This document shows, piece after piece, positions 1 through 4,503 of a stretch of DNA of 4,503 bases (its first letter is position 1; the number at the start of each line of letters is the position of its first letter). The DNA lies in UHGV virus genome UHGV-1974775; one strand, 5' to 3'. The notes under the pieces are model-generated. The model did no database searches. It was given only the letters and a program-made list of their open reading frames with translations, and was not told where the DNA came from. A program made the position numbers and the translations under genes. This DNA comes from a virus.

Positions 1-617
1 AAAAAATCGTAGCCAATTCCTGGCCTGTTACTCATAGCTGAAAACTCGGGTAGGCGATGTCCATAATGCTCCTCTGAACGGGAACCGGTGACTTTTTTAA
101 CACAGTATCGCGCCACATATGCAGCCGACTCAAAGCTAAAGCCAGCAATAACAGAAAAGCCAAAAGTCCAGCATCTTTCAAGAAGCGAAGACCTAAATAA
201 ATTAAATCTTCCAGCTTTATGCAGTGTCTTATCCGGAAAATCATATCCAAAAATAATCGCATGATAATGCGGTCGCTCTAATTTAGAGCCATATTCACCA
301 CAGCCGAAAAAACGAATTGAAATATCATCAACAGACAAAGCCTTACGCAAACGCTTCATAAAATCGGTGAAATGTTTACGAACGAGAGTTCCGCCTTCGG
401 GTAAATTCTCAGGCGAATAAGTCAGGGTGATAAAACAATTGTGATCGTGCATGTGGGCTTCATGAACACAGCGGGTCGCCCAGTCACGAGAATGGGCAAG
501 ACGGCAACCGATGCACTGACCGCAAGGCAACTGAATGAATTTAGCGCCACGTGACGGCGTGAAAAAAATCTTCCCCGATGGCATCTGGTACGCGTTTAAC
601 GGACGGGTACAAGCCAT
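1..617 (-). CDS. VP4: Replication initiation protein (HUH rolling-circle endonuclease), 5' portion (codons 1-205 plus two bases of codon 206); continues at 4257..4503 across the circular junction
   Basis: Hand translation of the minus strand from ATG at 617..615 gives MACTRPLNAYQMPSGKIFFTPSRGAKFIQLPCGQCIGCRLAHSRDWATRCVHEAHMHDHNCFITLTYSPENL...RPHYHAIIFGYDF...SAAYVARYCVKKVTGS...NRPGIGYDF, with no stop before position 1. It carries the three rolling-circle motifs: motif I CFITLTY (417..437), HUH motif PHYHAIIFG (246..272) and the two-tyrosine motif YVARYCVKK (93..119; compare phiX174 gene A YVAKYVNKK). SD GGAGG at 628..624, 6 nt before the ATG. Not in the ORF track because no stop falls inside the window. 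Confidence 0.88.
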   Translation of the reverse strand, partial: MACTRPLNAYQMPSGKIFFTPSRGAKFIQLPCGQCIGCRLAHSRDWATRCVHEAHMHDHNCFITLTYSPENLPEGGTLVRKHFTDFMKRLRKALSVDDISIRFFGCGEYGSKLERPHYHAIIFGYDFPDKTLHKAGRFNLFRSSLLERCWTFGFSVIAGFSFESAAYVARYCVKKVTGSRSEEHYGHRLPEFSAMSNRPGIGYDF

Positions 618-638
618 GACACACCTCCATAATTCACG

Positions 639-660
639 TATGCGCACCTTGGTGCGCATA
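639..660. repeat. Perfect inverted repeat TATGCGCACC-tt-GGTGCGCATA; its right arm is the XerC-binding arm of the dif-like site
   Basis: rc(639..648) = 651..660 exactly (10 nt arms, GC-rich). It would fold into a hairpin in the ssDNA genome and in the rep 5' leader, about 10 nt upstream of the rep SD. Confidence 0.7.
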
Positions 661-678
661 ATGTATATTTAGTTTAAC
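651..678. other. dif-like XerC/XerD recombination site (putative attP for host-Xer-mediated integration)
   Basis: Plus strand GGTGCGCATAA-TGTATA-TTTAGTTTAAC compared with canonical E. coli dif GGTGCGCATAA-TGTATA-TTATGTTAAAT (as I recall it): XerC arm 11/11, central region 6/6, XerD arm 7/11, total 24/28. It lies in the VP8-rep intergenic region. Confidence 0.75.
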
Positions 679-692
679 AAAAACAACGACTT

Positions 693-720
693 ACGATAAT
701 TATCGTAGATCGTTACGATC
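693..720. repeat. Two adjacent palindromes ACGATAATTATCGT (693..706) and GATCGTtACGATC (708..720) sharing the half-site ACGAT/ATCGT; contains two GATC sites (708..711, 717..720)
   Basis: Both palindromes are visible directly in the sequence: four copies of the pentamer ACGAT/ATCGT in alternating orientation within 28 nt, overlapping the candidate rep promoter spacer and -10. Confidence 0.6.
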
Positions 721-731
721 AACTTTGTCAA
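702..731 (-). promoter_or_regulatory. Candidate sigma70-type promoter for rep: -35 TTGACA (731..726), 18-nt spacer, -10 TACGAT (707..702)
   Basis: Minus strand reads TGA(VP8 stop)-TTGACA-aagttgatcgtaacgatc-TACGAT. The -35 is a perfect consensus; the -10 matches TATAAT at 4 of 6 positions including the key T1, A2 and T6. Identified by eye only. Confidence 0.35.
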
Positions 732-852: not shown

Positions 853-1635
853 TTACCTCCTAGGGGTTACTCGGAAAAACAGGGGGGAAGAATCCCCCCT
901 TTGGTTTACGGACTTAGCACTATTAGAATCGCGAAAGCCAAAGCCATCAAGACCTGAAATACGACGTAACCAACTACCAATCGCATTACCTTGTCCGACA
1001 AACCCTTTCCCTTGAGAGTCATAATTAACCTTAAGTGATTGAGCACCAGTCGGTGTATTCAAATAATCAGCCAGAACCTTGTCCTGAACAGTTTGATACT
1101 GTGTTCTAATCCGCTGCGCAGAACTGAGGCCTGTCTGTGCTTCAATATTGGCACGACGAGAAGCCTCGGTCAAAACCTGCTGATTAATCAGATTCGACTG
1201 CGATCGCATGTTATCGGCACTCTGGATAGCCTGGTCAGCCTGAGCCGTTTTAAGACGCACATCAGCCGCGCTATTCGCAATCTGGTTACGTTGTAACGCA
1301 ATCTGAGACTCAATGCCTTCACGGGCAACCTTTTGCTGCTCACGCTTCGTCAGAGCGTCGAACGCGGCAACGGCAGAGTTAACCGCACCAGAATAATCGG
1401 CAGGGGCAGCCTGCTGAATACCGGAAGAACTGACGGAACCAAGACCACCGGAACCATTAACGGCCAGAATCGGGTTAAGACCTGCTTTTCGCAAATCCTG
1501 TACGCGGTACTGCATACCGTTTTTGGCCAAATCCATCGTTAACTTGTTCGCCTGAGCGGCGTTCTGCTGGGCAGAGTGGGCACCAAGAAGAGAACCGGCA
1601 ACGGAACCTACAGCACCTGCAATTGCTCCCCACAT
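853..1635 (-). CDS. VP2: Minor capsid / DNA pilot protein
   Basis: 260-aa ORF immediately downstream of VP1 on the same strand. It has a Gly/Ala/Ser-rich N-terminus, the motif YRVQDLRKAGLNPILAV (the AGLNP motif recalled from Microviridae pilot proteins) and a Gln/Ala-rich central region that looks coiled-coil-like. SD GAGGTG lies 5 nt upstream of the ATG at 1635. Confidence 0.78.
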   Translation of the reverse strand: MWGAIAGAVGSVAGSLLGAHSAQQNAAQANKLTMDLAKNGMQYRVQDLRKAGLNPILAVNGSGGLGSVSSSGIQQAAPADYSGAVNSAVAAFDALTKREQQKVAREGIESQIALQRNQIANSAADVRLKTAQADQAIQSADNMRSQSNLINQQVLTEASRRANIEAQTGLSSAQRIRTQYQTVQDKVLADYLNTPTGAQSLKVNYDSQGKGFVGQGNAIGSWLRRISGLDGFGFRDSNSAKSVNQRGDSSPLFFRVTPRR

Positions 1636-1685: not shown

Positions 1686-3365
1686 TTAAAAATGGTCAAT
1701 AAGACCGGGTACTGAATAAACTGGCATAGGCCGCACACATTTCAGGTCAAAGAATGCATCCAGAATGAACTGAGGCTCGTCCTGAACGGCCAGAACACGA
1801 CTCATCGGTGGATTCTCTTCGATGAACTCCTGATTCAATGCGGGCAGAGAGTCGAACCGCTGGGCTAAATGCCACACATCGAGGGATTGCGGGTCTGTGG
1901 AACGTAATTTACCAGTAATCTGGGATGGACGATAGCGGTACTCCGCGTAACGTTCCTGATAGCCAAAGACTTCATCATCTTTAGCGTTGCCTTGCGCATA
2001 AATCTCCTTGTTAAGAATAGCCTGTTCGCCCAGGTGGGCCAGTGCAGGCCAGTAGAAATCAAAGCGGGTCTGACGGGAGAACATGCGCGGGATGCCTTGC
2101 TGATAGGTCAAATCTGCACGGACAGATACAAGACCAATGACAAAACAGTGCTCCACAAAAGAATGTGAAAAACCACGGTTAACACCACCGGAAACACCAT
2201 AAGCTGCGAGGTTACCTTGTGGGCTGGCATCGGTAGTCGCAGAGTTCTGAAGAACGGGATTGATATTTATATCGAACGAACCAGAGCCAAGATACTCAGG
2301 ACGCTGAACACGGGCATCAGGAGAAATGACGCCAAAATGACTGCGAATAATCTCAATGTATCGCGTACCACCGCGAGCATCACGCTCAAGCAGGCGCTGA
2401 AGCTGGAACGCCTGACGCAATGAGTTAATCGTGAGATTGTCAACAACTTCACCACCTGTCTTTTCCAAAGTAACCGGAGGTTTGCCCGGAAGGAAACCGG
2501 AAATAACGTCATAACGTCCCTGAACAGGAGATTCAGGCCAGTTAATACCATTCTGAAGGCCACCGCTCAAATAGAGACCTGTATCGGCGTCAAGACCACT
2601 ACGGGCAATATAGCCCGTACCAGCAACAGTCTGGCCGCCGGCGCCATAAGACTGCGTAAAGAACGCTAAACCATCCGGATATTCCGGATAATTCAACGAG
2701 TACGACGGCGGAACGCCTAAACCAATCTCAACACCTTCGCCTTTCTGAGGCCACGGAAGGGCACTTGTGAAGTAATCATGACGCTTGGCACGCTTACGCA
2801 GCGGGAAATTTGCGAGACCTGTTTCCGTCTCATCGCCAAGCGGAAGCGGGGCGGAATTAATCAGGTTTTCGTCACGATACCACTCGTTATAAATCAGGTT
2901 ATAAGCGCGGAACGGCAGGGCGCTTACGCTGATACCTTCGACACCTGTAGGAACACCAAAATAATCGGCAAGAGAGCCAACAGGGAAACCGCCAGCAGGG
3001 GCTGTAATCTGCGGAATCAAATAATCCGTAGAATCACCAGGGTTCTTCTGTTCTCCGTTGAATTTCTGCCAGTTATCCCAGACGAGGCGATAAGGTACAG
3101 AAAAATACTGAATATCCAGACGTAGATTATCCATGAAAGGAACCACGGGCGTGGAAAGACGCGCGAGAACACTCGTTTTAAGGTGGAACGTATCACCCGG
3201 CAAAGCCTCATCCAGAAACACGGGAATCAAATAACCAGCGTCAAAGGTGGTTTTATAACCAGAACTACGGTTAAAGACCGAACGCTGAATATTAGCACTC
3301 GGGATTACTGAAAAATTATGCTGACTTTTTGCATTACTAGGTACTTTACGACCGAATTTACTCAT
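1686..3365 (-). CDS. VP1: Major capsid protein
   Basis: 559-aa ORF. The N-terminal region (SVIPSANIQRSVFNRSSGYKTTFDAGYLIPVF...LARLSTPVVPFMDNLRLDIQYFSVPYRLVWDNWQKFNGEQKNPGDSTDYL...YFTSALPWPQKG) matches the conserved pattern of gokushovirus VP1 as I recall it from Chlamydia-phage-type capsid proteins. ATG at 3365 preceded by a G-rich SD (GAGGGGGG). It is the largest ORF and fills 37% of the genome. Confidence 0.95.
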   Translation of the reverse strand: MSKFGRKVPSNAKSQHNFSVIPSANIQRSVFNRSSGYKTTFDAGYLIPVFLDEALPGDTFHLKTSVLARLSTPVVPFMDNLRLDIQYFSVPYRLVWDNWQKFNGEQKNPGDSTDYLIPQITAPAGGFPVGSLADYFGVPTGVEGISVSALPFRAYNLIYNEWYRDENLINSAPLPLGDETETGLANFPLRKRAKRHDYFTSALPWPQKGEGVEIGLGVPPSYSLNYPEYPDGLAFFTQSYGAGGQTVAGTGYIARSGLDADTGLYLSGGLQNGINWPESPVQGRYDVISGFLPGKPPVTLEKTGGEVVDNLTINSLRQAFQLQRLLERDARGGTRYIEIIRSHFGVISPDARVQRPEYLGSGSFDININPVLQNSATTDASPQGNLAAYGVSGGVNRGFSHSFVEHCFVIGLVSVRADLTYQQGIPRMFSRQTRFDFYWPALAHLGEQAILNKEIYAQGNAKDDEVFGYQERYAEYRYRPSQITGKLRSTDPQSLDVWHLAQRFDSLPALNQEFIEENPPMSRVLAVQDEPQFILDAFFDLKCVRPMPVYSVPGLIDHF

Positions 3366-3392
3366 AAACCCCCCTCAGGGAATTGTTTAAAT

Positions 3393-3421
3393 ACTATACA
3401 AACCACTGTATAAACTGACAC
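3393..3421 (-). promoter_or_regulatory. Weak candidate promoter upstream of VP1: -35 GTGTCA (3421..3416), 17-nt spacer, -10 TATAGT (3398..3393)
   Basis: By-eye match on the minus strand: -35 matches TTGACA at 4/6 and -10 matches TATAAT at 5/6, with a 17-nt spacer; about 28 nt upstream of the VP1 ATG. Confidence 0.25.
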
Positions 3422-3465
3422 CTTTTTACAGGCTTCGTGGGAGCCGCCTGTAAGTTTCGGTGTCA

Positions 3466-3502
3466 CCTGGCACAGTTACATCAAGTAGGGCACTGTGCCA
3501 GG
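3466..3502. repeat. Perfect 11-bp inverted repeat (stem-loop) in the VP3-VP1 intergenic region
   Basis: CCTGGCACAGT (3466..3476) pairs with ACTGTGCCAGG (3492..3502); loop of 15 nt (3477..3491). Located 9 nt downstream of the VP3 stop on the coding strand, with no U-run after it. Confidence 0.65.
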
Positions 3503-3510
3503 CTGCAGGG

Positions 3511-4020
3511 TCAGGAGCCGTCTGCAGGTTTCGCGGGTTCAGAACCCGCATTTGATGCTTTATTCACATCAGCACCGGAACGCTCCCGCGGGGACGCCGG
3601 AGCAGGTTCCGACTCGCGAACCTTCGGTTCGGTCGCCGAAACCTCTCCGCCGCTCAACAATCCAAGCTCACGGGCTTTATCCCAGTTCGCCGGATCACTC
3701 ATGAATTCAACGTACTGTTTAACGTTATTACCAAACATCGCGCGAGTAGCGGACGGCAGGCTATTAAAGTCGTCGTTAACGTCGTCAATTAAAGCCATTG
3801 CGTCCACATAATCGGTAATCGCGGATGCATCGTAAAATTCAGCACGTTGAGTACTGGTAAACACGGTCGTGTCTCCCGTTCTTATCGCACGCTCAACAAT
3901 CTTATTGATGTCGCACTCATCGCGGAAATGCTGCTGGGTCATCGTGGGTTCTTTGAACTCGATGCCGGGCGACGGTGGCGGGTCATAGCGGGTATGGAAC
4001 TTACGCTTCGATGTACGCAT
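3511..4020 (-). CDS. VP3: Internal scaffolding protein
   Basis: 169-aa ORF with motifs I recognise from gokushovirus VP3 proteins: FRDECDINKIV near the N-terminus and RAMFGNNVKQYVEFMSDPANWDKARELGL later. ATG at 4020 with AAGGA 8 nt upstream. The C-terminal ~45 aa form a Pro/Ser/Ala/Glu-rich low-complexity tail. Confidence 0.8.
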   Translation of the reverse strand: MRTSKRKFHTRYDPPPSPGIEFKEPTMTQQHFRDECDINKIVERAIRTGDTTVFTSTQRAEFYDASAITDYVDAMALIDDVNDDFNSLPSATRAMFGNNVKQYVEFMSDPANWDKARELGLLSGGEVSATEPKVRESEPAPASPRERSGADVNKASNAGSEPAKPADGS

Positions 4021-4270
4021 TTTCAGAATCCTTCAGAAAGGCCGGAGTAGCTTCACAAACATAAACACGGTCAACGCTGACCGGAATAAGCTGTTCACCC
4101 TCAAAATCAAACGAAGTTACGCGATACAACGCAAAATCAGTACGCTGCATGCGGTTACAAAACGCATGCAATTGACCTTTCGCAATACCATCATGCTGAG
4201 CCATAAACATATAAACATCAGCATTAATCAGCTTGTCGTGAAATACATAAACTGCATCAGAGTGAGCCAT
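4001..4270 (-). CDS. Hypothetical 89-aa protein at the position occupied by VP5 in gokushoviruses (between rep and scaffold genes)
   Basis: ATG at 4270..4268 preceded by SD GAGGA with a 9-nt spacer (rc of 4271..4290 = aatgatGAGGAaattagaaa). The start overlaps the rep stop by 14 nt and the 3' end overlaps the VP3 start by 20 nt, a compact arrangement typical of Microviridae. I do not recognise the sequence itself, so the call is positional. Confidence 0.5.
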   Translation of the reverse strand: MAHSDAVYVFHDKLINADVYMFMAQHDGIAKGQLHAFCNRMQRTDFALYRVTSFDFEGEQLIPVSVDRVYVCEATPAFLKDSENAYIEA

Positions 4271-4503
4271 TTTCTAATTTCCTCATCATTCGCTGGAATT
4301 TAACCAGATTAAATTTATCTAAATCCTGCAAACGCCACGGGTCTAATACCTGAGCATTTAACTGGCGCTTTTCTTTATTTTGCTGCAACTTTTCCAAATC
4401 ACAGCCTGATAATAACTTGTCATAATAGCGGGGCGGTTTTATCTGACGACCGCCACGACCAATACACGCATCTGAATTAACTATGTCATCGTAATACTCC
4501 ATA
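4257..4503 (-). CDS. VP4: Replication initiation protein, 3' portion (last 81 codons plus stop), contiguous in frame with 1..617 if the molecule is circular
   Basis: ORF-track 81-aa ORF (MEYYDDIVNSDACIGRGGRQIKPPRYYDKLL...). Its first codon (4502..4500) sits immediately after the junction codon formed by positions 2,1,4503 (aaa on the plus strand = TTT, Phe), so the reading frame runs ...GIGYDFF-MEYYDD... with no stop. The combined protein is 287 aa. Confidence 0.72.
   Translation of the reverse strand, partial: MEYYDDIVNSDACIGRGGRQIKPPRYYDKLLSGCDLEKLQQNKEKRQLNAQVLDPWRLQDLDKFNLVKFQRMMRKLENGSL

What the first reader, a model, noticed from the sequence alone, without database searches (positions are those of the whole stretch)
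639..660. Hairpin built from an inverted copy of the XerC arm, immediately upstream of the rep ribosome-binding site
TATGCGCACC-tt-GGTGCGCATA is a perfect 10-nt inverted repeat whose right arm is the XerC-binding arm of the dif-like site. In the packaged ssDNA it would fold into a GC-rich hairpin that makes the XerC arm double-stranded. CTX phage builds its attP from folded ssDNA, so a structured ssDNA recombination substrate is conceivable. In the rep mRNA leader the same hairpin sits about 10 nt 5' of the SD and could modulate rep translation or transcript stability. Either role would link integration and replication control in one 40-nt element.
Basis: inference. Interest (0 to 1): 0.5.

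Follow-up and report, generated by a model that had tools for sequence, protein, structure and literature searches.

The report
XerC-arm hairpin before phage rep gene
A small E. coli single-stranded DNA phage carries an inverted copy of half of its chromosome-integration site just upstream of its replication gene; the hairpin this makes is real and kept in one lineage, but close relatives integrate and replicate without it, so it is an optional leader hairpin and not a new recombination device.

Summary
The window is a complete circular Enterogokushovirus genome, about 92% identical to Escherichia phage EC6098, with all genes on the minus strand. The repeat exists as described: TATGCGCACC (639-648), tt, GGTGCGCATA (651-660). 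The right arm is positions 1-10 of the XerC arm of the dif-like site (651-678). The stem base lies 10 nt 5' of the rep (VP4) Shine-Dalgarno sequence. It folds as 9 bp plus a 4-nt loop (RNA -14.9 kcal/mol, z -4.2). The tenth pair is seen only in this genome and L349.

Among eight distinct repeat-bearing leaders the left arm never varies (0/9 columns) while the adjacent spacer does (7/10; p=0.003). No compensatory change exists. Prophages sitting at host dif lack the arm. Two prophages encoding the identical Rep differ in having it. A published EC6098 mutant lacking the XerC arm still infects.

Only the XerC arm is duplicated. The central region and XerD arm stay unpaired in the folded viral strand, so a CTX-like ssDNA attP is excluded. 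In silico, destroying the left arm does not change SD accessibility.

Verdict: an undescribed, lineage-specific, dispensable leader stem-loop, or a template-switch quasi-palindrome. Low interest.

The parts
639..648 (.). Left arm of the inverted repeat: an inverted copy of XerC-arm positions 1-10 (reads GGTGCGCATA on the minus, VP4-sense strand)
   Evidence: 10/10 complementary. Invariant in 8 distinct repeat-bearing leaders. Absent or decayed in other alleles.
649..650 (.). Nominal 2-nt spacer. In all folds the effective loop is 648-651 (4 nt)
   Evidence: The loop and closing positions vary among relatives: TAAG, TGAG, CAAG in VP4 sense.
651..661 (+). XerC-binding arm of the dif-like site (GGTGCGCATAA). 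Positions 651-660 form the right arm of the repeat
   Evidence: Identical to the E. coli dif XerC arm seen at prophage junctions. Annotated as 'dif-motif' in EC6098 MT185428.
662..678 (+). Central region TGTATA (662-667) and degenerate XerD-like arm TTTAGTTTAAC (668-678). Neither has a complementary copy nearby
   Evidence: Unpaired in the ssDNA fold, apart from a weak 4-bp helix touching the outer end of the XerD arm.
657..659 (-). AUG embedded in the XerC arm. GenBank uses the equivalent ATG as the vp4 start in EC6098. It lies inside the stem
   Evidence: The frame relative to VP4 is not conserved, and no SD precedes it.
624..628 (-). Shine-Dalgarno GGAGG of rep (VP4), 6 nt before the ATG
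   Evidence: Invariant in alignment A1.
1..617 (-). 5' part of the rep/VP4 CDS (ATG 617-615). It continues across the circular junction
   Evidence: 864 nt, 287 aa, MACTRPLNAY.... PGAP calls the same start in 7 E. coli prophages. Pfam REP_ORF2-G2P.
4257..4503 (-). 3' part of the rep/VP4 CDS including the stop codon
679..731 (-). Rest of the non-coding attP module. It holds the palindrome 685-714 followed on the minus strand by G-TTTTT (terminator-like), the palindrome GATCGTTACGATC (708-720), and a promoter-like TTGACA (731-726) - 18 nt - TACGAT (707-702)

Best explanation
The element is a lineage-specific inverted duplication of the XerC arm. It lies in the non-coding leader between the dif-like attP site and the rep (VP4) ribosome-binding site of an Enterogokushovirus.

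On the viral, mRNA-sense strand it folds into a discrete 9-bp, 4-nt-loop stem-loop. The stem buries the AUG that the XerC arm unavoidably contains. It ends 10 nt before the SD.

It is an accessory leader hairpin and not part of the Xer recombination machinery. Integration uses the ordinary double-stranded 28-bp dif-like site together with host XerC and XerD.

Its most likely effect is on the rep transcript: a structural block in the 5' leader that could stabilise the RNA, damp read-through from upstream, or mask the upstream AUG. This is inferred, not shown.

Shown here: the repeat exists, it folds stably, it is conserved within one allele group, and it is dispensable for integration at dif and for Rep function.
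For: Repeat and fold:
- The repeat is real and not due to chance.
- The fold is stable and well defined on the VP4-sense strand: RNA -14.9 kcal/mol, z -4.2, 82% of the ensemble; DNA -9.1 kcal/mol.
- It folds as an independent module in the 136-nt context.

Conservation:
- In 8 distinct repeat-bearing leaders (VP4 84-100% identical to the window's) the left arm has 0/9 variable columns against 7/10 in the adjacent spacer (Fisher p=0.003).
- L356 lacks the XerC-arm copy but has an unrelated perfect 9-bp hairpin (-14.0 kcal/mol, z -4.3) at the same place between XerC arm and SD. This suggests that a hairpin as such, not a second XerC site, is what recurs there.

Dispensability:
- IR-less prophages sit at host dif in complete E. 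coli genomes: L004, L007, L009.
- L006 (with the repeat) and L007 (without) encode the identical Rep WP_180932805.1.
- An IR-less genome persists as a 4549-bp circular episome in a cultured E. coli.
- The EC6098 delta-difC construct removes the 11-nt XerC arm, which is the right arm, yet the phage still infects and persists as circles; it only fails to integrate (PMC7062461 and its primer table).
Against: - There is no compensatory change in any of the 10 pairs, and RNAalifold does not recover the stem across alleles. The conservation could reflect arm-to-arm correction rather than selection.
- Four or more leader alleles have no significant structure at all, with z >= -0.2.
- In silico, the hairpin does not alter SD or AUG accessibility.
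- The transcription start is unmapped, so whether the hairpin is in the rep mRNA at all rests on one promoter-like match.
- The tail after the stem (CGUGAAUUAU) is not U-rich, so it is not a canonical terminator.
- In the L357/L366 clade the arm decayed (3/9 changes) while the spacer was kept (1-2/10), which shows no constraint there.
Confidence: 0.45

Rival explanations
1. Neutral quasi-palindrome. The inverted copy arose, and is kept perfect, by intrastrand template switching on a single-stranded genome. The XerC arm, held constant by XerC binding, serves as template, so the left arm is repeatedly corrected. It has no function of its own.
For: - No covariation.
- The element was lost, decayed or replaced in many lineages without visible consequence.
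- The only variation in the repeat is at the loop and closing positions. In the window and L349 the XerC-arm base 651 is G, exactly complementary to the left arm's C648, where other relatives have a mismatching A. That is the signature expected of palindrome correction, although G is also the host dif base.
- Template-switch perfection of quasi-palindromes is established in E. coli (own knowledge).
Against: - The left arm is invariant across lineages whose VP4 differs by up to 16% while the adjacent spacer is saturated with changes.
- An analogous but unrelated hairpin occupies the same position in L356.
- Correction did not rescue the arm in L357, L366 or L009.
Confidence: 0.3
2. A double-stranded DNA-level modulator of Xer recombination. 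The left arm would be a second, back-to-back XerC half-site (GGTGCGCATAc) that binds XerC as a decoy. Alternatively the palindrome extrudes as a cruciform in the supercoiled replicative form. Either would tune XerC occupancy of the true arm and the balance between integration and excision.
For: - The left arm matches 10 of 11 XerC-arm positions, including the outer GGTGCG.
- It is conserved within one allele group.
- It travels with the dif site as one contiguous non-coding module.
Against: - The arms are outer-end to outer-end with a 2-bp gap, so they do not form a recombination site.
- There is no XerD partner arm to the left. The best candidate matches 5/11 positions with a 5-bp spacer, in this genome only (sequence inspection).
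- IR-less relatives integrate at dif.
- L356 replaces it with a hairpin unrelated to XerC.
- 9-bp arms are short for cruciform extrusion (own knowledge).
Confidence: 0.12
3. A CTX-like folded ssDNA attachment site. The hairpin in the packaged strand would make the XerC arm double-stranded so that Xer recombines the single-stranded genome with host dif.
For: The phage is a ssDNA phage that uses XerC/XerD (PMC7062461), and the hairpin is predicted to form in ssDNA at -9.1 kcal/mol.
Against: - Only the XerC arm is paired. The central region and XerD arm are single-stranded.
- The XerD arm is required for integration (delta-difD).
- CTX attP(+) consists of two complete inverted sites and gives irreversible integration. 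Here integration is reversible and prophages keep two intact sites.
- IR-less relatives are integrated at dif.
Confidence: 0.02
4. Coding sequence. VP4 would start at the ATG inside the XerC arm (659-657), as annotated for EC6098 in GenBank, and the repeat would be codons 1-7 (MRTKVRI) of a longer Rep.
For: The ATG is in frame and open in the alleles with a 42-nt leader.
Against: - No SD precedes it.
- The frame is broken in the repeat-bearing L351 (40-nt leader; L365 has the same 40-nt spacing by my count) and in L004/L007. A stop intervenes in L002, L012, L353 and L358.
- PGAP and the gene caller of the contig collection choose the downstream start, which has a perfect GGAGG.
- All sampled relatives begin with M-A/P-C at that start.
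Confidence: 0.03

Closest known systems
dif-motif (attP) of Enterogokushovirus EC6098 (Kirchberger & Ochman 2020, eLife, PMC7062461)
   Same: It is the same element in a roughly 92%-identical genome. A 28-bp XerC arm / 6-bp spacer / degenerate XerD arm lies between VP8 and VP4. Host XerC and XerD and both arms are needed for integration at dif. The 9-nt repeat is present in EC6098 too.
   Different: The paper never mentions a hairpin, a stem or an inverted repeat. Its primer design joined GGTGCGCATAA... to AAGGTGCGCATA..., so by my reconstruction the resurrected phage carries the same perfect 10-nt palindrome as this window, whereas the deposited EC6098 record (MT185428) and other prophages have the mismatching base. 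GenBank places the vp4 start inside the motif.
CTX-phi attP(+), a folded single-stranded attachment site (reviewed in PMC4246890)
   Same: It belongs to a ssDNA phage that exploits host XerCD, and intrastrand pairing makes a Xer arm double-stranded.
   Different: CTX needs two complete, inversely oriented attP sites about 90 nt apart that together rebuild the XerC arm, a bulged centre and the XerD arm. Neither duplex site works alone, and integration is irreversible. Here only 9-10 nt of the XerC arm are duplicated, the duplex site is complete, and integration is reversible.
VGJ-phi / TLC-phi type IMEX attP (a single double-stranded dif-like site)
   Same: A single 28-29-bp dif-like site is used as duplex DNA, the prophage is flanked by two Xer sites, and it can excise. 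That matches the behaviour reported for EC6098.
   Different: No adjacent inverted XerC arm is mentioned for those sites in the passages of the review I read. The order of strand exchange in the gokushovirus is unknown.
5'-leader stem-loops of bacterial and phage mRNAs, e.g. the ompA 5' hairpin (own knowledge)
   Same: A short GC-rich hairpin in a 5' leader that does not occlude the SD.
   Different: The transcription start here is unmapped. With the one promoter-like site found the hairpin would be about 35 nt from the 5' end, not terminal. No effect on expression has been measured.
Quasi-palindrome template-switch mutagenesis (own knowledge)
   Same: An imperfect palindrome (9 bp plus a C/A mismatch in most relatives) appears as a perfect one in this genome through a single base change that copies the opposite arm.
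   Different: The same base could equally come from the host dif XerC arm. No direct evidence of the mutational route exists.

Membership tests
CTX-type folded ssDNA attP(+) | Two complete dif-like sites (XerC arm, centre and XerD arm each) in inverted orientation | tested here: not met
   Only 639-648 mirrors 651-660. No complement of 661-678 lies nearby. The leftward candidate 'second site' matches 5/11 of a XerD arm with a 5-bp spacer and is not conserved.
CTX-type folded ssDNA attP(+) | The folded strand rebuilds a duplex containing both Xer arms around the exchange region | tested here: not met
   In the DNA fold of 600-735 (viral strand) the central region is unpaired and the XerD arm is unpaired apart from a weak 4-bp helix at its outer end. 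The pair lies between two separate hairpins.
CTX-type folded ssDNA attP(+) | The duplex form is not recombinogenic and integration is irreversible | tested here: not met
   The duplex site is a complete 11-6-11 dif-like site. Prophages are flanked by two intact sites. The literature reports continuous excision.
Enterogokushovirus dif-type attP (double-stranded IMEX site) | A 28-bp site with an XerC arm, a 6-bp centre identical to host dif, and a XerD-like arm, in the VP8-VP4 intergenic region | tested here: met
   651-678 reads GGTGCGCATAA TGTATA TTTAGTTTAAC. It is the same site as the annotated dif-motif of EC6098.
Enterogokushovirus dif-type attP (double-stranded IMEX site) | Relatives are integrated at host dif with hybrid attL and attR sites | tested here: met
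   Seven complete E. coli genomes carry such prophages next to hipA. attL is the host XerC arm plus the phage XerD arm. attR is the phage XerC arm plus the host XerD arm.
Enterogokushovirus dif-type attP (double-stranded IMEX site) | Dependence on host XerC and XerD | not testable with these tools
   Shown experimentally for EC6098 (PMC7062461).
Evolutionarily conserved structured RNA or DNA element | Base pairs maintained by compensatory changes across relatives | tested here: not met
   0 of 10 pairs show a double change, and the shuffles equal or exceed the observed values. RNAalifold omits the stem. No credible Rfam match at E<=1: the single hit (suhB, 21.2 bits against a gathering score of 41, E 0.41) lies at 1642-1713, away from the element.
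Intrinsic (rho-independent) terminator | A GC-rich stem immediately followed by a U tract on the transcribed strand | tested here: not met
   On the gene-sense strand the tail is CGUGAAUUAU. The scan flags the hairpin only on the plus strand, which carries no genes.
Rep (VP4) origin or operator | It must co-occur with its cognate Rep | tested here: not met
   L006 (repeat present) and L007 (repeat absent) encode the identical Rep WP_180932805.1. A far better origin candidate lies at 3459-3502.
N-terminal coding extension of VP4 | A conserved open frame from the upstream ATG, with a ribosome-binding site | tested here: not met
   The frame is broken or stopped in 11 of 20 distinct leaders, including the repeat-bearing L351. 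No SD is present.

The most novel reading that the evidence does not exclude
The inverted XerC arm is a cis-acting tuner of Xer recombination specific to this attP allele. It would act in one of two ways. A second XerC monomer could bind back-to-back. Alternatively, hairpin or cruciform formation on the viral strand or the supercoiled replicative form could hide the true XerC arm. Either would set how often the phage enters or leaves the chromosome and would couple that choice to rep leader structure.
Probability: 0.1. Interest if true: 0.6.

Novelty: new member of a known kind. Interest (0 to 1): 0.25.

Why it matters
If the hairpin had been a CTX-like folded substrate, it would have been a second, independent invention of ssDNA Xer integration, in a different phage family. 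The evidence excludes that.

What remains is modest:
- an undescribed but optional structural feature of the enterogokushovirus attP/rep-leader module
- a caution that the laboratory-resurrected EC6098 appears, from its primer design, to carry a perfected version of the palindrome
- a probable mis-annotated vp4 start in the reference record

The comparative data also show that the whole non-coding attP module (leader, dif site and the VP8-side intergenic region) is exchanged as a cassette between phages with identical Rep. That is useful for anyone studying how microviruses gain or lose lysogeny.

Tried and rejected
1. Scans of metagenome contigs and genome contigs with the 15-mer CCATGACACACCTCC. 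The pattern was too short. The two capped scans were wasted.

2. A look-up of VP8 with 1.5-kb flanks. It returned prophage attL ends only, too far from the leader to be useful.

3. A second dif-like site reading leftwards from the left arm. The best register gives a 5-bp centre and 5/11 XerD-arm matches, in this genome only. Rejected.

4. SD sequestration by the XerC-arm complement (GCGCACC with GGUGUGU), with the left arm acting as anti-sequestrator. Folding shows the SD paired with VP4 codons 4-7 whether or not the left arm is intact. Rejected.

5. The repeat as Rep origin or operator. Rejected because an identical Rep occurs with and without it.

6. Coding extension of VP4. Rejected.

7. 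Rfam search. No credible match; the only hit at E<=1 is a sub-threshold suhB match at 1642-1713.

8. Search of IMG/VR for the repeat pattern. It found only EC6098 and two copies of one unrelated palindrome without a dif context, so this is not a general feature of Xer-exploiting viruses there.

9. A general 'hairpin at this position' hypothesis across alleles. It is only partly borne out. Structure is strong in the repeat allele and L356, moderate in L354, and absent in at least four alleles.

Full report
WHAT THE WINDOW IS

The 4503-nt window is a complete, circularly permuted Enterogokushovirus genome (Microviridae, Gokushovirinae). It is 91.7% identical over 90% of its length to Escherichia phage EC6098. 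It is 87-90% identical to seven prophages in complete E. coli chromosomes.

All genes are on the minus strand:
- rep/VP4 runs 617->1 and continues 4503->4257 (864 nt, 287 aa)
- VP5, 4001-4270
- VP3, 3511-4020
- VP1, 1686-3365
- VP2, 853-1635
- VP8, 732-851

The only sizeable non-coding stretch besides 3366-3510 is 618-731. It contains the finding.

THE OBSERVATION

The repeat is exactly as described: TATGCGCACC (639-648), tt, GGTGCGCATA (651-660), 10/10 complementary.

It is the only perfect inverted repeat of >=10 nt with a loop <=10 nt in the genome. Only 4.3% of 1000 dinucleotide-preserving shuffles contain one anywhere. A chance overlap with one particular 11-nt site is therefore of the order of 1e-4.

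The right arm is the XerC arm. Window 651-678 reads GGTGCGCATAA-TGTATA-TTTAGTTTAAC. The host dif at the prophage junctions reads GGTGCGCATAA-TGTATA-TTATGTTAAAT.

The rep start is the ATG at 617-615, with GGAGG at 628-624. The stem base is therefore 10 nt 5' of the SD.

A 2-nt loop cannot form. All folds give 9 bp and a 4-nt loop:
- RNA -14.9 kcal/mol, z -4.2, 82% of the ensemble
- DNA -9.1 kcal/mol

RELATIVES

I collected the region upstream of VP4 from about 40 related genomes:
- GenBank phages
- E. coli chromosomes
- IMG/VR
- an E. coli 'plasmid' that is really an episomal phage, and a Citrobacter plasmid
- contigs found through exact VP5 and VP4-homologue look-ups

They give 20 distinct leaders in alignment A1, plus L363, L365 and L366.

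Four things follow.

1. The shared core is 9+9 nt. Every other repeat-bearing relative sampled has A at the 651-equivalent (XerC arm AGTGCGCATAA), which leaves a C/A mismatch next to the loop. Only the window and L349 have G.
   - In prophages the host-side attL carries G and the phage-side attR carries A.
   - The tenth pair is therefore polymorphic. It may come from palindrome correction or from the host dif.
   - The published resurrection of EC6098 ligated primer GGTGCGCATAATGTATATTTAGTTTAAC to AAGGTGCGCATATGCG.... By my reconstruction the laboratory phage carries the same perfect palindrome as this window.

2. Within the eight distinct repeat-bearing leaders (VP4 84-100% identical to the window's) the left arm is invariant (0/9 variable columns). 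The adjacent 10-nt spacer is nearly saturated (7/10; Fisher p=0.003). Something keeps the arm, either selection or arm-to-arm correction.

3. The arm is not general.
   - It is absent in L004 and L007, which have a 23-nt longer leader with a second CTGGAGGT.
   - It is also absent in L002/mar4, L363, L352, L353, L354/355, L358/359 and L012.
   - It is a decayed relic in L009, L357 and L366. In L357 and L366 it has 3/9 changes while the spacer has 1-2/10.
   - L004, L007 and L009 are prophages sitting at the chromosomal dif of complete E. coli genomes.
   - L363 is a 4549-bp circular episome in a cultured strain.
   - L006 (repeat) and L007 (no repeat) encode the identical Rep, WP_180932805.1.
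   - A VP4 tree places IR-less genomes inside the clade whose VP4 is at least 92% identical to the window's.

4. There is no covariation. None of the 10 pairs shows a compensatory change, the shuffles match or beat the observed scores, and RNAalifold does not recover the stem.
   - One lineage (L356) has an unrelated perfect 9-bp hairpin, GAGCAGCAU-auu-AUGCUGCUC, at -14.0 kcal/mol and z -4.3, at the same position.
   - L354 pairs its variant XerC arm with a downstream GCGUAU (z -2.9).
   - At least four alleles have no structure.

(a) A CTX-like folded ssDNA substrate.
- CTX attP(+) is about 150 nt. It is built from two complete, inversely oriented attP sites. Neither duplex site is functional, and integration is irreversible (PMC4246890).
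- Here only the XerC arm has a complement.
- In the fold of the viral strand (600-735) the central region and XerD arm lie essentially unpaired between two separate hairpins.
- Both arms and both recombinases are needed. Prophages keep two sites and excise continuously (PMC7062461).
- IR-less relatives integrate. This mechanism is excluded.

(b) Control of rep translation.
- Folding the leader from three possible 5' ends shows the hairpin as an isolated module.
- The SD is predicted to pair with VP4 codons 4-7 instead (unpaired probability 0.09).
- Replacing the left arm by three different 10-mers leaves this at 0.10-0.18.
- An effect on mRNA stability or read-through cannot be tested here. 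The only promoter-like site on the gene strand (TTGACA 731-726, 18 nt, TACGAT 707-702) would put the hairpin about 35 nt into a roughly 78-nt leader.
- The published delta-difC phage lacks the right arm yet still infects and persists as circles. The stem is therefore not essential.

OTHER READINGS

- Coding. GenBank starts EC6098 vp4 at the ATG inside the XerC arm. That ATG has no SD. Its frame is broken in the repeat-bearing L351 and in L004/L007, and stops intervene in others. PGAP uses the downstream start.
- Origin or operator for Rep. Excluded by an identical Rep with and without the repeat. A much better origin candidate lies elsewhere (see the last section).
- Terminator. The gene-strand tail is not U-rich.
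- Second XerC site. The arms are outer-end to outer-end with 2 bp between them, and there is no XerD partner. This remains a minor possibility as a decoy.

CONCLUSION

The repeat is a real, previously unmentioned feature of one family of enterogokushovirus attP/rep-leader modules. Searches for 'hairpin', 'inverted' and 'stem' found nothing in the EC6098 paper.

It most likely acts, if at all, as an accessory stem-loop on the rep leader or viral strand. It may simply be a self-correcting quasi-palindrome. It is not part of the integration mechanism and does not link integration to replication control.

SEEN IN PASSING

- The hairpin at 3459-3502 has an 11-bp stem and the loop CTACTTGATGTAAC on the viral strand. 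It is invariant in EC6098, mar4 and two very distant microviruses.
- A 20-mer from it occurs exactly in 98 IMG/VR contigs, mostly 4-5 kb, nearly always once per contig.
- It shares ACTTGAT with the phiX174 gene A cleavage site (own knowledge). It is the obvious candidate for the plus-strand origin.
- The surrounding 195 nt fold with z -4.9.

Noticed in passing
window 3459-3502 (context 3366-3560), minus/viral strand: A perfect 11-bp hairpin (3466-3476 with 3492-3502) has the loop CTACTTGATGTAAC. The 44 nt are invariant in EC6098, mar4, Eel River basin pequenovirus and bajarodmic virus 446. The 20-mer CTACTTGATGTAACTGTGCC occurs exactly in 98 IMG/VR contigs, mostly 4-5 kb and nearly always once per contig. 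It shares ACTTGAT with the phiX174 origin nick site (own knowledge), so it is a candidate plus-strand origin. The whole 195-nt region folds with z -4.9.
   Followed up: partly
window 679-731: On the gene strand, the palindrome 714-685 (15-nt arms, 87%) is followed directly by G-TTTTT (683-679). That looks like a terminator after VP8. It is overlapped by a promoter-like TTGACA (731-726) - 18 nt - TACGAT (707-702). Integration at dif would separate rep from this promoter.
   Followed up: partly
window 708-720; L353, L365, L004: The palindrome GATCGTTACGATC (two Dam GATC sites) lies just after the VP8 stop. It recurs in other attP alleles with a changed centre: GATCGTTTCGATC in L353 and L365, and GATCGTGACGATC in L004. 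It is absent from the short-intergenic allele of mar4, L363 and L009.
   Followed up: no
window 588-640, minus strand: The rep SD (GGAGGUG) is predicted to pair with VP4 codons 4-7 (ACCCGUCC), enclosed by an outer helix CGUGA/ACGCG. The SD unpaired probability is 0.09. This could keep Rep translation low. Conservation was not tested.
   Followed up: no
L001 (MT185428 / NC_048874) vp4, record 21-926: The reference EC6098 annotation starts vp4 at the ATG inside the dif motif, giving a 906-nt CDS. The SD-preceded start 42 nt downstream gives the 864-nt CDS that PGAP calls in all seven E. coli prophages. The reference start is probably mis-annotated.
   Followed up: yes
L006 versus L007 (NZ_CM149560, NZ_AP027709): The two prophages share identical VP4, VP5 and VP3 proteins. 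They differ in the leader, the phage XerD arm (TTTAGTTTAAC versus TGATGTTAAGG), the VP8-side intergenic region, VP2 and VP1. The attP module therefore appears to be exchanged as a cassette between phages.
   Followed up: partly
L002, L009, L363, L356 dif-like sites: Some alleles have a 7-bp centre that differs from host dif (TGTAAAG, TGTAAGG, TGTTGCC) together with a near-canonical XerD arm. The window's allele has the host's exact 6-bp centre and a poor XerD arm (7/11). This suggests that enterogokushoviruses may use different Xer pathways, VGJ-like versus TLC-like.
   Followed up: no
L364 / L011 (Citrobacter sp. TSA-1 plasmid NZ_CP053574, 56-62 kb): A complete gokushovirus genome on a 171-kb IncF plasmid is bracketed by two identical ISNCY transposase genes. 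One IS is inserted just beyond the XerC arm. The arrangement resembles a composite transposon rather than a dif integration.
   Followed up: partly
L363 (E. coli RHB37-C16 'plasmid' pRHB37-C16_3, CP057117, 4549 bp): A record deposited as a plasmid is a circular enterogokushovirus genome without the repeat. This is consistent with the pseudolysogenic carrier state described for EC6098.
   Followed up: partly
window 881-900, minus strand: A strong terminator-like hairpin, AGGGGGGATTCTTCCCCCCT followed by GTTTTT, lies inside the 3' end of VP2, just upstream of VP8.
   Followed up: no
L353 (free circular phage, VP4 78% identical): A 7-nt inverted repeat, ACGCCGT ... ACGGCGT, brackets the whole dif-like site, overlapping the outer end of its XerD arm. 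It may be chance.
   Followed up: no
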